The position numbers were made by a program, and so were the translations under genes. From an uncultured Verrucomicrobiae bacterium (GTDB taxonomy: Bacteria; Verrucomicrobiota; Verrucomicrobiia; Chthoniobacterales; UBA10450): a stretch of 64,000 bases of DNA. Shown one piece after another: positions 8,024 through 30,786 of the stretch. Every line of letters starts with the position of its first letter. The first letter of the stretch is position 1. The notes under the pieces are model-generated. The model had not been told where the DNA came from and searched no databases. It saw only the letters and a list, made by a program, of their open reading frames with translations. The stretch lies in NCBI GenBank assembly GCA_963788855.1, contig CAWBIE010000001.1:89437-153436 (forward strand), written 5' to 3'.

Positions 8024-9271
8024 ATGAAACGTAAGCGTGTGGTCGTTCTGGGGGCGACGGGGTCGATCGGCGAGAGTGCGCTCAAGGTTGCGCACGACAT
8101 TCCCGAACGCATGGAGATTGTCGGTCTGGCGGCCAACCGCAATGTCGAAAAGCTCGCTGCGGCCGCGAACCAGGTCCGGCCGAAGGCCGTTTGTCTGGTC
8201 GACGAATCGAAGCTCGACGCTCTGGGCAGGGCCCTCGATTACAAGCCACAGATTTTTTCTGGCGCAGCCGGGCTGTGCGAGATAGCGACCCTTAGCGAGG
8301 CCGAGATTGTGTTAATCGCAATCGTCGGGACGGGTGGATTGCGTCCGGCTCTGGCCGCGATTGCAGCGGGCAAGGATCTCGCGGTGGCGAGCAAAGAAAT
8401 TTTAGTCATGGCGGGTGAGATCGTTATGCGCGAAGCGCGCGCGAAAGGCGTGCATGTGCTTCCCGTCGATAGCGAGCACAACGCCATCTTTCAGTGTTTG
8501 GAGGGAAAATTTTCTGTCGGAAAACGCTCAACACCCAACGCTCAACGTCCAACGTCCAAGGCAGAAAATTCGGCGTTGAGCGTTGAGCGTTGGGCGTTCG
8601 ACGTTTCTGATGTGCGACGAATCATTCTCACCGCCTCGGGCGGCCCGTTTCGTAAGACGCCGCGGACGGAGTTCGATGCCATCACGGTCGAACAAGCATT
8701 AAAGCATCCGACCTGGAACATGGGTCCCAAAATTACGATCGACTCGGCTACTCTATTTAATAAGGGCCTGGAGATGATCGAAGCACACTGGTTGTTTGGC
8801 CTGGAGATGCAACGGGTGGAAGTAGTGATCCATCCGCAGAGCATTGTGCATTCGATGGTCGAATTCGTGGATGGCTCGACCGTCGCGCAGCTGAGTTACT
8901 CGGATATGTGCTTCCCTATTCAATATGCGGTGACCTGGCCGGATCGGGTCCCGAATTCACTGCCGCCGCTCGATTTCTCGAAGGTCCAGACACTCGAGTT
9001 CGAGGTTCCGCGTTACGATGACTTTCCCGCCTTGCATCTGGCACGCCGCGCGGGTGAGACCGGCGCCACGTTGCCTGCGGTCATGAACGCCGCCAACGAA
9101 GTGGCAGTGGCCGCATTCCTGGAGAAACGGGTGCGTTTTCCCCAAATCTGGCAAATTGTCGAGGGCGTCATGAATCGCCATACCGGCGTTGCGCATCCCG
9201 ATCTCGATGCAATATTGCGGGCCGATCAATGGGCGCGCCAGGAAGCGGAAAAGCTGGCCGCGGATTTGTAG
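8024..9271 (+). CDS. dxr: 1-deoxy-D-xylulose-5-phosphate reductoisomerase
   Basis: Intact 415-aa ORF: VVVLGATGSIGESAL, DSEHNAIFQCL, ILTASGGPFR, HPTWNMGPKITIDSATLFNKGLEMIEAHWLF. Carries an unusual insert in the variable loop between DSEHNAIFQ and LTASGGPF (see repeat 8522-8606). Confidence 0.93.
   Translation: MKRKRVVVLGATGSIGESALKVAHDIPERMEIVGLAANRNVEKLAAAANQVRPKAVCLVDESKLDALGRALDYKPQIFSGAAGLCEIATLSEAEIVLIAIVGTGGLRPALAAIAAGKDLAVASKEILVMAGEIVMREARAKGVHVLPVDSEHNAIFQCLEGKFSVGKRSTPNAQRPTSKAENSALSVERWAFDVSDVRRIILTASGGPFRKTPRTEFDAITVEQALKHPTWNMGPKITIDSATLFNKGLEMIEAHWLFGLEMQRVEVVIHPQSIVHSMVEFVDGSTVAQLSYSDMCFPIQYAVTWPDRVPNSLPPLDFSKVQTLEFEVPRYDDFPALHLARRAGETGATLPAVMNAANEVAVAAFLEKRVRFPQIWQIVEGVMNRHTGVAHPDLDAILRADQWARQEAEKLAADL
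8522..8606. repeat. Heptamer-built imperfect hairpin element lying in frame inside dxr
   Basis: Left arm is tandem 7-mers ACGCTCA ACACCCA ACGCTCA ACGTCCA ACGTCCA. Right arm (8573-8606) is TGAGCGT TGAGCGT TGGGCGT TCGACGT. The arms are roughly 80 percent complementary. Encodes KRSTPNAQRPTSKAENSALSVERWAFDV. Confidence 0.7.
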
Positions 9272-10830: not shown

Positions 10831-12771
10831 GTGAGGTACTGCGACTCGCCATTTTCATATCAGCGGCGCGTTTCGCGCGAGGTCATGGTCGGCAAGGTCG
10901 GCGTGGGTGGAACAAGTCCGATCCGCGTTCAATCCATGATCACGTGCGATACCATGGACACGGAAGCGTCCATCGCACAGACGATGGAATTGGCCGCGGT
11001 TGGGTGCGAGATCGTGCGCATCACGGCCCCGACCGTAAAGGACTCGCGGAATCTCGAATTGATTGTCAAAGGTCTGCGCGACCGAGGCTGCGACGTGCCA
11101 ATCGTAGCCGACATCCATTTCAAACCGGATGCGGCCATGGAAGCCGCCAAATGGGTCGAGAAAGTGCGCATCAACCCCGGGAACTACGCCGACTCGAAAA
11201 AATTCGCGATCCGCGAATACAGCGATGAGCAATATGCGGCGGAGTTGGCGCGGATTCGGGAACGCTTTGCGCCGCTGGTCGAACTTTGTCGAAGCCGCGG
11301 CATCGCCATGCGCATCGGCACGAATCACGGGTCGCTCAGCGACCGGATCATGAACCGTTATGGAGATTCTCCACTCGGCATGGTGGAGAGCGCTCTCGAG
11401 TTCGCGCGGATCGCGCGCGACCTCGATTATCACGCCTTCGTTTTCTCGATGAAGTCGAGCAACCCCAAGGTGATGATCGCGGCGTATCGGTTGCTCGTCG
11501 CGCGGCTCGACCAGGAAGGCCCGGATTGGAACTATCCGATTCATCTCGGCGTGACCGAGGCGGGGGAAGGCGAAGACGCGCGCATCAAAAGCGCGATCGG
11601 AATTGGTTCGCTCCTGGCAGACGGCATTGGCGATACCATTCGTGTTTCCCTGACGGAAGACAGCATTCACGAAATTCCGGTGGCGAAGGCCCTAATCGAT
11701 TGCGGATTGCGGATTGCCGATTGCGGAAAGAACAAATCCGAAATCCGAACTCCGGAATCCGGAATTTCCTTTGATCCATTTTCCTATCAACGCCGCGCCA
11801 CGGAGAGGATTTCTGTAGCAACCATCGGCGATCCCGGCCAAACCATTGCTCTGGGTGGAGAGGAGTTAATCCGGGTCGTCGTTAGGCAAGCGAATTTCGA
11901 CAAAATTGCCCACAAGATCGACAAGATGGGTGATTACAAGCCGGAGATCGTCTACGAGAAGGCGCAGATCGTGAAAGTGGATCCGCGCGACGATGTGGCG
12001 ATGGCGCGATTGAATGAAAGTTCGGCGGCGCAGTTCGTGACGGTAAGGGACGACGTGGATTTGCCGGTGATCGCGGCGTTTCGGCTGCTGGCCGCCAGGT
12101 TGGATGCGCGGCATCCGATTCTTTTAAAAGACACGCTGGGCTGGGTGCCGACTCAGAATGACGAAGCACGAATGACGAATGACGAAGGAAGTCCGAATGA
12201 CCGAATGACGAAGGAGGCACCCGGTGATTTCGTTCGGGATTCGAGCTTCGTCATTCCTTCGACATTCGACATTCGTCATTCGTCATTCCTGGAGACGCTA
12301 CTCGTAGCGTCGGCCAACATCGGCTCGCTCCTTTGCGATGGGATCGGGGACGCTGTTCTGGTGCAAGGCGAAGAGGCCCCCGGTCAGGCCCTGCGACTTT
12401 CGTATAATATACTGCAGGCGGCGGGCTCGCGGATTTTCAAGACCGATTACGTGGCCTGTCCGTCCTGCGGGCGCACCTTGTTCAATCTTCAAACCACCAC
12501 CGCGAAAATCAAAGCCGCAACTCTGCATCTCAAAGGCGTCAAGATCGCCATCATGGGCTGCATCGTGAACGGTCCGGGCGAAATGGCGGATGCGGATTTC
12601 GGTTACGTGGGCGGCGCTCCCGGAAAAGTGAATCTCTATGTCGGGAAAACGCCGGTGAAATTCAATATCCCGGAGGCCGAAGCGGTCGATCGTTTGCAGG
12701 ATCTCATTCGCGAGCACGGCAAGTGGATTGAACCGGCGGGGCAACCGGCCACGGCCGACCTTTCGAACTGA
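10831..12771 (+). CDS. ispG: 4-hydroxy-3-methylbut-2-enyl diphosphate synthase IspG, long form with internal insertion domain
   Basis: Intact 646-aa ORF. N-terminal TIM-barrel part (IRVQSMITCDT, VRITAPT, PIVADIHF, RINPGN) and C-terminal 4Fe-4S part (ACPSCGRT, MGCIVNGPGEMADADFGYVG) are separated by ~270 aa, as in long-form (plant/Bacteroidetes-type) IspG. Confidence 0.9.
   Translation: MRYCDSPFSYQRRVSREVMVGKVGVGGTSPIRVQSMITCDTMDTEASIAQTMELAAVGCEIVRITAPTVKDSRNLELIVKGLRDRGCDVPIVADIHFKPDAAMEAAKWVEKVRINPGNYADSKKFAIREYSDEQYAAELARIRERFAPLVELCRSRGIAMRIGTNHGSLSDRIMNRYGDSPLGMVESALEFARIARDLDYHAFVFSMKSSNPKVMIAAYRLLVARLDQEGPDWNYPIHLGVTEAGEGEDARIKSAIGIGSLLADGIGDTIRVSLTEDSIHEIPVAKALIDCGLRIADCGKNKSEIRTPESGISFDPFSYQRRATERISVATIGDPGQTIALGGEELIRVVVRQANFDKIAHKIDKMGDYKPEIVYEKAQIVKVDPRDDVAMARLNESSAAQFVTVRDDVDLPVIAAFRLLAARLDARHPILLKDTLGWVPTQNDEARMTNDEGSPNDRMTKEAPGDFVRDSSFVIPSTFDIRHSSFLETLLVASANIGSLLCDGIGDAVLVQGEEAPGQALRLSYNILQAAGSRIFKTDYVACPSCGRTLFNLQTTTAKIKAATLHLKGVKIAIMGCIVNGPGEMADADFGYVGGAPGKVNLYVGKTPVKFNIPEAEAVDRLQDLIREHGKWIEPAGQPATADLSN
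11694..11767. repeat. Heptamer-built hairpin element (GATTGCG / CCGAAAT family) in frame inside ispG
   Basis: Left arm aatcGATTGCG GATTGCG GATTGCC GATTGCG GA. Right arm TCCGAAA TCCGAAC TCCGGAA TCCGGAA. The arms are partly complementary. Encodes LIDCGLRIADCGKNKSEIRTPESGISF. Confidence 0.6.
12156..12289. repeat. Heptamer-built hairpin element (GAATGAC family) in frame inside ispG
   Basis: Left arm is repeats of GAATGAC(G) (gaatgacgaagcacgaatgacgaatgacgaagg...ccgaatgacgaagg). Right arm cttcgtcattccttcgacattcgacattcgtcattcgtcattcc is its approximate reverse complement. Encodes NDEARMTNDEGSPNDRMTKE...SSFVIPSTFDIRHSSF. Confidence 0.7.
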
Positions 12772-30196: not shown

Positions 30197-30786
30197 GAGT
30201 GATCGCGGGTTCCGCCGGCGGAATCCAGCTCGAGGTTCCGAAGAGTAAAGTGCGGCCGACCATGGATCGGGTGAAGGCCGCGATCTTTTCGAGTCTGGGC
30301 GACGAGATCGCGGACGCCCGCGTGCTCGATCTCTTCGCCGGCAGCGGCGCGCTCGGGATTGAAGCGCTCAGCCGCGGCGCGGCCTCCGCTCTCTTTGTCG
30401 ATCAGGATCGAAAGTCGACCCTGGCGATCGAGAAGAATCTGGCTAAAACAAAACTCGAAGGACGCGTGCGCCAGCAGGATGTCTTTGCTTTTTTGCGGCG
30501 CGCGGACTCGGTCTTCCATATCATCTTCGCCGATCCTCCTTACGAACAAACGGAGTCCGGAGAACGCTTCACCGACAAACTGTTGACCGATGAATTCCTA
30601 CCCCGACTCTTGGAGCCGGGAGGAATCTTTGTCTTGGAAAAGCGACCATCCGAACAACTTCCCGCGACGAAATTCTGGAATGTCATTCGCGCAAAGACGT
30701 ATGGTGCGACCGAGGTCCTCTTTCTCTCCGCGATCCGGGATTTGCAGTCCGCAATCCGCAATCCGAAATCCGAAATGCCTTCGTGA
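30193..30786 (+). CDS. rsmD: 16S rRNA (guanine966-N2)-methyltransferase RsmD
   Basis: MRVIAGSAGGIQLEVPKSKVRPTMDRVKAAIFSSLG, VLDLFAGSGALGIEALSRGA, IIFADPPY. The C-terminal tail is encoded by a heptamer array (see 30749-30776). Confidence 0.88.
   Translation: MRVIAGSAGGIQLEVPKSKVRPTMDRVKAAIFSSLGDEIADARVLDLFAGSGALGIEALSRGAASALFVDQDRKSTLAIEKNLAKTKLEGRVRQQDVFAFLRRADSVFHIIFADPPYEQTESGERFTDKLLTDEFLPRLLEPGGIFVLEKRPSEQLPATKFWNVIRAKTYGATEVLFLSAIRDLQSAIRNPKSEMPS
30749..30776 (+). repeat. Tandem heptamer array CCGCAAT x2 + CCGAAAT x2 forming the 3' end of rsmD
   Basis: ccgcaat ccgcaat ccgaaat ccgaaat encodes SAIRNPKSEM. Same unit family as the ispG element at 11694-11767. Confidence 0.7.

What the first reader, a model, noticed from the sequence alone, without database searches (positions are those of the whole stretch)
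11694..12289. Two more heptamer hairpin elements inside ispG, in the same operon
Element 1 (11694-11767) has GATTGCG-type 7-mers facing CCGAAAT/CCGGAAT-type 7-mers. Element 2 (12156-12289) has GAATGAC-type 7-mers facing GTCATTC-type 7-mers, about 134 nt in total. Both are in frame and fall inside the insertion domain of the long-form IspG. They encode odd peptides (IADCGLRIADCG..., RMTNDE...SSFVIPSTFDIRHSSF). Together with the dxr element, that makes three repeat-hairpin inserts within 4 kb of one operon encoding two MEP-pathway enzymes. The units differ in sequence but share the same architecture: a tandem 7-mer array, a loop, and the inverse array. This points to a common generating mechanism rather than a single mobile sequence.
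Basis: seen in the sequence. Interest (0 to 1): 0.62.

Follow-up and report, generated by a model that had tools for sequence, protein, structure and literature searches.

The report
Translated heptamer-hairpin selfish repeats in ispG
Two small hairpin-forming repeats built from 7-base units sit in frame inside the essential gene ispG of a soil Verrucomicrobium; they are gene-less copies of a selfish element family whose full form resembles ribosomal-RNA intervening sequences, and relatives keep swapping different such elements in and out of the same protein loops.

Summary
Both elements are real, non-random, in frame and stop-free, and lie in ispG loops that an AlphaFold model predicts to be disordered. 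They are not peculiar to the MEP operon.

- **Genome census.** The genome holds 166 heptamer-array loci (172 arrays of 4 or more units against 2 in a simulation). They are depleted in coding DNA: 11% against 62% for random positions.
- **Family membership.** Element 2 (GAATGAC) is the largest dispersed family. Elements 1 and 2 and the dxr element each use a heptamer that elsewhere flanks, as inverted arrays, a small PF05635 four-helix-bundle gene. This is the layout of ORF-bearing 23S rRNA intervening sequences. GAATGAC-armed genes from four genera are 62-73% identical; differently armed paralogues in one genome are 23-33%.
- **Hot spots.** Across 160 related ispG loci the same three loops hold at least 10 different hairpin families, or none. 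All 395 alleles have lengths divisible by 3, and sister lineages carry different elements.
- **Conservation.** Element DNA is far more conserved than flanking synonymous sites (0.80 against 0.52).

Best reading: these are translated, RPE-like selfish hairpins derived from IVS-like cassettes. The mechanism that moves them is unknown.

The parts
10831..12771 (+). ispG (GcpE, long form, 646 aa from the GTG start; the database copy starts 18 codons later)
   Evidence: ORF and translation. Pfam PF04551 E = 2e-123. Orthologues at 79-85% identity.
11698..11727 (+). Element 1, 5' arm: GATTGCG x4.3
   Evidence: TRF. The same unit forms the arms of PF05635 cassettes in relatives L206 and L207.
11734..11765 (+). 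Element 1, 3' arm: AAATCCG x4.6, a diverged complement (CAATCCG in relatives)
   Evidence: TRF. Weak fold, z = -2.2. Relatives encode SAIRNPQSAI, which is a perfect CAATCCG array.
12156..12212 (+). Element 2, 5' arm: GAATGAC-type units, interrupted so that no TGA falls in frame
   Evidence: TRF x8.4, sequence, alignment of 19 alleles.
12213..12245 (+). Element 2, loop (unique sequence, variable among alleles)
12246..12288 (+). Element 2, 3' arm: GTCATTC/GACATTC units. The related terminal motif CATTCCTTCGTCATTAGACATTCGTCATTCGTCATT is shared by relatives' alleles and gene-bearing cassettes.
8523..8605 (+). Context: dxr in-frame hairpin (AACGCTC/CAACGTC facing GCGTTGA). Same unit family as the PF05635 cassette at G000 C4:66810-67268.
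30744..30776 (+). Context: the only other GATTGCG-family locus in this genome, a one-armed GCAATCC/AAATCCG array at the 3' end of an ORF

Best explanation
The two ispG elements, and the dxr element, are gene-less hairpin copies of heptamer-armed selfish element families. The full-length form is a 450-600-nt cassette: a PF05635 (23S-rRNA-IVS-protein / S23p / Avd-like) four-helix-bundle gene between inverted arrays of one 7-nt unit. This is the architecture of ORF-bearing 23S rRNA intervening sequences.

Copies that land in a dispensable surface loop of an essential protein, with a length divisible by 3 and no in-frame stop, survive and are translated as floppy loop extensions, as Rickettsia palindromic elements are. 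In the Udaeobacter-type Chthoniobacterales the two IspG loops and one Dxr loop are such permissive sites. They are repeatedly filled, replaced (also by RAYT-type REP hairpins) and emptied.

- **Shown:** family membership, the cognate link between gene and arm, in-frame status, dispensability, turnover among relatives.
- **Inferred:** that the elements are translated, that they are neutral or selfish, and that they move. The enzyme and the mechanism of movement are unknown.
For: **Dispersed families.** There are 166 heptamer loci and 82 unit types; GAATGAC accounts for 45 arrays and about 25 loci, always with the GAATGAC arm 5' of the GTCATTC arm. GAATGAC occurs in 16 of 41 relatives and GATTGCG in 14 of 25, with reversed-pattern control hits in only one relative each.

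**Cassette link.** Four of 5 PF05635 genes in this genome lie 30-51 nt from heptamer arrays (P = 0.0006 for at least 3 of 5), and on reading the sequence all four are bracketed by inverted heptamer arrays. This includes GAATGAC and AACGYCC arms. In the order, 16 of 33 PF05635 loci are armed. GAATGAC-armed cassettes occur in three other genera. Their proteins are 62-73% identical to each other, against 23-33% for differently armed paralogues in the same genome. GATTGCG-armed cassettes occur in two relatives. The terminal arm motif is shared between a cassette and the ispG alleles.

**In frame and dispensable.** All 147 + 136 + 112 alleles at the three loops have lengths divisible by 3. Alleles with no element make up 32% at ispG site 2 and 49% at the dxr loop. 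pLDDT is below 50 at exactly residues 295-320 and 438-484.

**Turnover.** At least 10 element families occupy site 2. The GAATGAC allele needs at least 5 changes on well-supported branches, and well-supported sister pairs carry different elements.

**Depletion in genes.** Only 11% of heptamer loci are in coding DNA against 62% for random positions; for strong hairpins it is 8 of 93.

**Published parallels.** The Coxiella IVS has an S23p ORF, a 28-bp stem and tandem heptamers (PMC4990558). RPEs are in-frame palindromic elements (PMC10969869).
Against: - No movement, target-site duplication or enzyme was seen. 'Short' alleles are not clean empty sites.
- No PF05635 cassette with GATTGCG arms was found in this 63%-complete genome.
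- Most genomic GAATGAC copies are closed in all frames (15 of 114 frames open, 12.2 expected). Independent insertions should therefore rarely be viable, yet the allele is scattered on the ispG tree.
- Element DNA is far more conserved than neutral drift allows: third-codon-position identity is 0.80 against 0.52 in the flanks. This hints at selection or active renewal that a purely passive-passenger model does not explain.
- Element 1 is only a weak hairpin, and the commonest site-1 allele in relatives is a one-armed array.
Confidence: 0.7

Rival explanations
1. The hairpins are REP/REPIN-type elements mobilised by one of the genome's Y1 (RAYT) transposases. The PF05635 association is incidental.
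For: Seven Y1_Tnp genes score over the cut-off. Several are flanked by REP hairpins of families that occupy the same ispG and dxr loops in relatives. Y1 genes lie somewhat nearer to heptamer loci than random positions do (median 2.9 against 10.1 kb, P = 0.03).
Against: No RAYT gene is flanked by heptamer arrays; their flanks are GC-rich TGTAG-type REPs. The heptamer arrays instead bracket PF05635 genes at 30-51 nt, and gene and arm are co-inherited across genera.
Confidence: 0.08
2. The arrays arose in place by polymerase slippage on chance heptamer duplications plus fold-back copying. There is no mobility.
For: Heptamer simple repeats are over-represented in many bacteria and slippage has been proposed as the cause (PMC4692102). 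Copy number differs among alleles, and units are homogenised within one arm (L089, L085). The dxr 'empty' alleles contain single-copy look-alikes of the units.
Against: The same few units recur at unrelated sites and in different genera: GATTGCG at site 1 here and at site 2 in L032, L100 and L134; CAACGCC at ispG site 1 and in dxr; GAAACCG at both ispG sites. Non-repeat terminal motifs are shared with distant cassettes. Distribution among relatives is patchy.
Confidence: 0.08
3. The in-gene hairpins are maintained because they function, for example as mRNA structures (RNase III sites, translational pauses at domain boundaries) or as useful protein linkers.
For: Element DNA is conserved at all three codon positions (0.86, 0.86, 0.80) while flanking third positions are at 0.52 and element-free linkers at 0.43. 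The elements sit at or near domain boundaries.
Against: About a third to a half of alleles lack any element, and sister lineages carry unrelated ones. Stem pairs hardly vary, so there is no compensatory evidence (27 pairs, 2 with double changes). Some alleles have broken pairing (L089). Similar conservation is seen for REP-type alleles, which fits renewal from a family consensus equally well.
Confidence: 0.12
4. Assembly artefact of a long-read, indel-prone MAG.
For: No reads could be laid.
Against: The same element sits at the same codon positions in 28 independently assembled alleles from MAGs and soil contigs, and the reading frame is intact.
Confidence: 0.01

Closest known systems
Rickettsia palindromic elements (RPE; Ogata et al. 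2000, as summarised in PMC10969869)
   Same: Dispersed families of 70-150-nt palindromic repeats inserted in frame, without stops, into unrelated housekeeping genes and translated as extra peptide segments compatible with the fold.
   Different: There is no sequence relation. The arms here are tandem 7-nt units. The host is a free-living soil verrucomicrobium. Several families compete for the same loops with fast turnover, and a gene-bearing full-length form (PF05635 cassette) exists.
ORF-bearing 23S rRNA intervening sequences (Coxiella burnetii IVS with S23p; PMC4990558)
   Same: A stem made from terminal inverted repeats with tandem heptamers whose copy number varies between strains, with a PF05635-family gene in the loop. 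The full-length cassettes of the GAATGAC, AACGYCC and GATTGCG families have exactly this layout.
   Different: The ispG copies carry no gene, lie in an mRNA coding region rather than an rRNA helix, and must be translated rather than excised by RNase III. Excision was not testable here.
Cyanobacterial STRR heptamer repeats and small dispersed repeats (Mazel 1990; Elhai 2008, from my own knowledge), and Xanthomonas/Nostoc G-rich heptamers (PMC4692102)
   Same: Many families of tandem heptamers, mostly intergenic and sometimes in inverted pairs. Tiny palindromes nest inside the arrays, as seen here in L003, L005, L006 and the UbiD-family hairpin.
   Different: Different units and a different phylum. 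In-frame residence in essential genes and the link to a PF05635 gene are not part of those descriptions.
REP/REPIN-RAYT systems
   Same: Short hairpin repeats with a dedicated gene flanked by its own repeats. Such REPs share the very same ispG and dxr loops in relatives, and RAYT genes with REP flanks exist in this genome.
   Different: The two ispG elements lack the GC-rich TGTAG-type REP sequence, and no RAYT gene is flanked by heptamer arrays.

Membership tests
RPE-like in-frame palindromic selfish elements (functional class) | Multi-copy dispersed family within the genome | tested here: met
   GAATGAC: about 25 loci and 45 arrays. GATTGCG: 2 loci here and many in relatives.
RPE-like in-frame palindromic selfish elements (functional class) | Hairpin-forming inverted symmetry | tested here: met
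   Element 2 z = -6.8. Element 1 is weak, z = -2.2.
RPE-like in-frame palindromic selfish elements (functional class) | Inserted in frame, stop-free, in a functional housekeeping gene at a structurally permissive place | tested here: met
   Open 646-aa frame. All 395 of 395 alleles have lengths divisible by 3. pLDDT is below 50 over both inserts, though the model's mean is only 62.
RPE-like in-frame palindromic selfish elements (functional class) | Sequence homology to the Rickettsia RPE families | not tested
   No RPE sequences were compared. The composition and the heptamer build make homology unlikely.
Heptamer-armed PF05635 (23S rRNA IVS-type) cassettes | Stem formed by inverted arrays of tandem heptamers | tested here: met
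Heptamer-armed PF05635 (23S rRNA IVS-type) cassettes | PF05635 four-helix-bundle gene in the loop | tested here: not met
   The ispG loops are 6 and about 33 nt and hold no gene. The feature is met only by other family members: C4:780843-781607, L202-L207. The ispG copies are therefore gene-less derivatives, not full members.
Heptamer-armed PF05635 (23S rRNA IVS-type) cassettes | Same heptamer unit and arm-end motif as a gene-bearing cassette, with the gene subfamily co-inherited with the unit | tested here: met
   GAATGAC-armed proteins from four genera are 62-73% identical, against 23-33% for other paralogues. The motif TTCGTCATTAGACATTCG is shared.
Heptamer-armed PF05635 (23S rRNA IVS-type) cassettes | Excision of the stem from the transcript by RNase III | not testable with these tools
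REP/REPIN-RAYT | A RAYT gene flanked by the same repeat | tested here: not met
   The Y1_Tnp genes are flanked by other, GC-rich REPs, not by heptamer arrays.
MITE (IS-derived) | Terminal inverted repeats plus target-site duplication and a parent IS with a transposase | tested here: inconclusive
   The arms act as inverted repeats. Sister-pair comparisons showed no clear target-site duplication, and the 'short' alleles are not clean empty sites. No parent IS was found.
Cyanobacterial STRR | STRR unit sequences and cyanobacterial host | tested here: not met
   The units are GAATGAC, GATTGCG and AACGCYC. The host is Chthoniobacterales.

The most novel reading that the evidence does not exclude
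Heptamer-armed PF05635 cassettes and their gene-less hairpins form one self-propagating system. Each four-helix-bundle paralogue reads its own 7-nt unit. rRNA helices, operon junctions and dispensable loops of essential proteins are alternative habitats.

On this reading the in-gene copies are not decaying passengers. They are actively renewed or re-homed at the same sites. That would explain their conservation at the nucleotide level against saturated flanks and their patchy distribution on the ispG tree.
Probability: 0.3. Interest if true: 0.85.

Novelty: new variant of a known kind. Interest (0 to 1): 0.6.

Why it matters
**For rRNA intervening sequences.** This lineage is among the commonest in soil. 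It offers three protein loops with hundreds of natural filled, empty and replaced alleles, plus matching gene-bearing cassettes. That makes the origin and mobility of these long-puzzling elements directly testable.

**For Dxr and IspG.** Both are antibiotic targets. The alleles give a natural map of insertion-tolerant loops in the two enzymes.

**For annotation.** Peptides such as RMTNDE and SSFVIRHSSF are translated repeats, not protein motifs.

Tried and rejected
- **Family tuned to be translatable.** Rejected. 15 of 114 frames through genomic GAATGAC copies are open, against 12.2 expected. One observation remains: in all five gene-bearing GAATGAC cassettes the PF05635 frame stays open into the inner 5' arm and reads it as ...(R)MTNDE(G)..., the frame ispG uses.
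- **Compensatory base changes in the element-2 stem.** Uninformative, because the pairs hardly vary.
- **Recent spread by recombination.** Flank third-position identity is only slightly raised next to the element (0.526 against 0.473 upstream, no difference downstream). Element divergence correlates weakly with flank divergence (r = 0.17, Mantel P = 0.025). Neither vertical descent nor horizontal spread is excluded.
- **Rfam.** Only sub-threshold chance hits to eukaryotic miRNA hairpins.
- **RAYT link to heptamer arrays.** Weak.
- **Literature on Udaeobacter repeats.** Nothing found.
- **Coding call.** My ORF/codon-model classifier leaves 123 of 166 loci 'ambiguous', mostly short ORFs or arrays within about 70 nt of an ORF end. 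The 11% coding figure is therefore a lower bound.
Full report
**Observation.**
The window lies in a 3.0-Mb, 6-contig, 58% G+C genome. The names of related records place it in the Verrucomicrobiota, order Chthoniobacterales, among Udaeobacter-like soil bacteria.

ORF 10831-12771 is a long-form IspG (Pfam GcpE, E = 2e-123) in the gene order cdsA-dxr-rseP-ispG. TRF and direct reading confirm both elements:
- Element 1: GATTGCG x4.3 (11698-11727) facing AAATCCG x4.6 (11734-11765).
- Element 2: GAATGAC-type x8.4 (12156-12212) facing GTCATTC/GACATTC-type x4.4 (12246-12288).

Element 2 is a strong hairpin (-68.4 kcal/mol, z = -6.8). Element 1 is weak (-27.2 kcal/mol, z = -2.2), because each unit pairs at only 6 of 7 bases. 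Both are in frame.

A pure GAATGAC array carries TGA in every frame. The 5' arm of element 2 is interrupted exactly where TGA would fall in frame.

An AlphaFold2 model has moderate overall confidence (mean pLDDT 62). Its pLDDT falls below 50 at residues 295-320 and 438-484, which are the two inserts.

**Not chance, not an artefact, not operon-specific.**
Period-7 arrays of 4 or more units number 172 in the genome against 2 in an order-3 Markov simulation.

The 242 arrays of at least 2.8 units merge into 166 loci with 82 unit types. GAATGAC is the commonest, with 45 arrays.

Only 19 loci (11%) lie inside well-supported coding frames, against 62% for random intervals. Of 93 strong hairpins of any kind, 8 do. 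The elements therefore avoid genes, and the in-gene copies are survivors.

Hosts of in-frame hairpins or arrays include Dxr, IspG (twice), ThiC, a UbiD-family protein, ArgJ, MiaA, LeuRS, PrmC, a DUF255 protein and AlaRS. Three coding loci within 4 kb is still unusual (P = 0.0045).

**Relatives: three loops are hot spots.**
I fetched 160 related ispG loci, 80 from species genomes and 80 from soil contigs. I cut out the stretches between conserved anchors.

*Site 2 (element 2), 136 alleles.* The counts are:

| Allele type | Count |
|---|---|
| GAATGAC hairpin | 28 |
| TGTAGGGCG...CGCCCTACA REP | 16 |
| GTAGGGGCC REP | 11 |
| GATTGCG array | 10 |
| Other REP families | 6, 6 and 2 |
| GAAACCG array | 3 |
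| CTGGATA array | 2 |
| Unclassified ('other') | 9 |
| Short linker of 36-45 nt | 43 |

*Site 1 (element 1), 147 alleles.* Most hold a one-armed CAACGCC array. Others hold GAAACCG or AAATCCG arrays or REPs.

*The Dxr loop, 112 alleles.* It is empty (39-42 nt) in 55. The rest hold CAACGCT-type hairpins or REPs.

All 395 alleles have lengths divisible by 3. This is what is expected if the inserts are translated, and not if they were bypassed or excised.

On a tree of IspG with both sites masked, the GAATGAC allele needs 17 changes by parsimony. At least 5 of these are forced by well-supported branches. Well-supported sisters carry unrelated elements, for example L023/L131 (98%), L018/L153 (99%), L119/L120 and L017/L090.

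**What the elements are.**
Genomic GAATGAC copies always have the GAATGAC arm 5' of the GTCATTC arm. Their loops are unique and their arm ends are shared.

Following a lead from earlier notes of this scan, I searched the genome for PF05635, the 23S-rRNA-IVS-protein family. It has five such genes. Four lie 30-51 nt from heptamer arrays and are bracketed by inverted arrays:

| Position in G000 | Layout |
|---|---|
| C4:66810-67268 | AACGYCC, gene, GGGCGTT (the dxr unit family) |
| C4:780843-781607 | GAATGAC, gene, GAATGAC + GTCATTC (the element-2 family) |
| C4:369444-369883 | TTTCAGA, gene, CTGAAAC |
| around C6:140472-140789 | GTGAC-type heptamers, gene, ACTCATC (read by eye) |

The chance of at least 3 of 5 lying this close to an array is P = 0.0006.

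In the order as a whole, 16 of 33 sampled PF05635 loci are armed under a strict TRF criterion, with at least 12 different units.

GAATGAC-armed cassettes also occur in three other genera (L202-L205). Their proteins are 62-73% identical to the one here. The four differently armed paralogues of this genome are only 23-33% identical to it. L205 holds a gene-bearing cassette and a gene-less hairpin side by side.

GATTGCG-armed cassettes, the unit of element 1, occur in two relatives.

The arm-end motif TTCGTCATTAGACATTCG of the cassette in L202 recurs in ispG alleles of many species.

This layout matches the published Coxiella 23S rRNA IVS: an S23p ORF, a 28-bp terminal stem, and tandem heptamers whose number varies between strains (PMC4990558).

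The REP-type elements that share these loops in relatives belong to families that flank Y1/RAYT genes in this genome. No RAYT gene is flanked by heptamer arrays.

**An unexplained point.**
Among GAATGAC alleles, third codon positions of the flanking ispG sequence are only 52% identical, which is saturated. Within the element the three codon positions are 86, 86 and 80% identical.

REP-type alleles behave alike (72-89% identity), while element-free linkers are 43% identical. The inserts are therefore either constrained at the nucleotide level or continually renewed from a conserved family.

The tests I could run do not decide between these:
- Stem pairs barely vary, so covariation is uninformative.
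- Some alleles have broken pairing.
- Flank hitch-hiking is slight.
- Element divergence tracks flank divergence only weakly.
- Most genomic copies are closed in every frame, which argues against frequent independent viable insertions.

**Verdict.**
But the elements are members of dispersed families that avoid genes and are not special to MEP genes.

The closest known behaviour is that of RPEs, which are in-frame selfish palindromes. The closest known architecture is the ORF-bearing rRNA IVS. I found nothing in the searchable literature on such repeats in Udaeobacter or Verrucomicrobia. Earlier notes of this scan report similar elements in other phyla.

New here are the cognate co-inheritance of gene and arm across genera and the three hot-spot loops with many alleles.

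Noticed in passing
G000 C5:189582-193106 (outside the window): alaS is one open 1175-aa frame. It holds an in-frame REP hairpin (C5:192050-192165). It also holds an apparently complete Y1/RAYT-like transposase domain in frame in the loop before FAFRLYDEQGFP (HUH motif PDHVHALL; 23.7 bits in the genome scan, 20.1 bits in hmmscan). A GAATGAC hairpin abuts its 5' end.
   Followed up: partly
window 30744-30776: One-armed GCAATCC/AAATCCG array at the very 3' end of an ORF. It is the only other locus of element 1's unit family in this genome.
   Followed up: no
L006:5318-5491, L003:5303-5473, L029 site 2: A mini-hairpin, GGTCCGAGCCGGACTGGCGTT, is nested inside the heptamer arms. In L006 it is present in both arms as exact reverse complements. 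This implies either arm-to-arm copying or orientation-specific targeting of the heptamer.
   Followed up: partly
G000 C1:30547-30576, C1:467338-467420, C4:550020-550050, C5:550873-551003; L005 site 2: A roughly 30-nt repeat, CCGCCTTCGCAGGGCTACGGCGCGRCAGGC, abuts or nests in heptamer arrays, including in-frame copies (peptides PAFAGLRRG and PSQGYG).
   Followed up: no
A1 columns 340-362 and 485-500 (P0066, P0106, P0026): Some IspG orthologues carry REP-derived inserts at a third and a fourth site, for example DAEEAAHGRAGSIEPPGRLGSIAPT between RLNEL and WNYP.
   Followed up: no
G000 C5:81246-81806, C4:61065-61544, C1:538116-538718, C2:171146-171829, C5:318737-319005: Several RAYT-like Y1 transposase genes are each flanked by their own REP hairpins. 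These families (WEGPQRPD, DRRY and TGTAGGGC types) appear in frame in ispG and dxr of relatives.
   Followed up: partly
G030 (relative, same order): The reversed control pattern AAGCAGTAAGCAGTAAG has 12 + 12 hits, so that genome has its own abundant heptamer family.
   Followed up: no
G000 C2:193705-194024: ThiC carries three different heptamer arrays (GAAATCC, ACAGAGG, AGCATCC) in frame within about 320 nt of its N-terminal region.
   Followed up: partly
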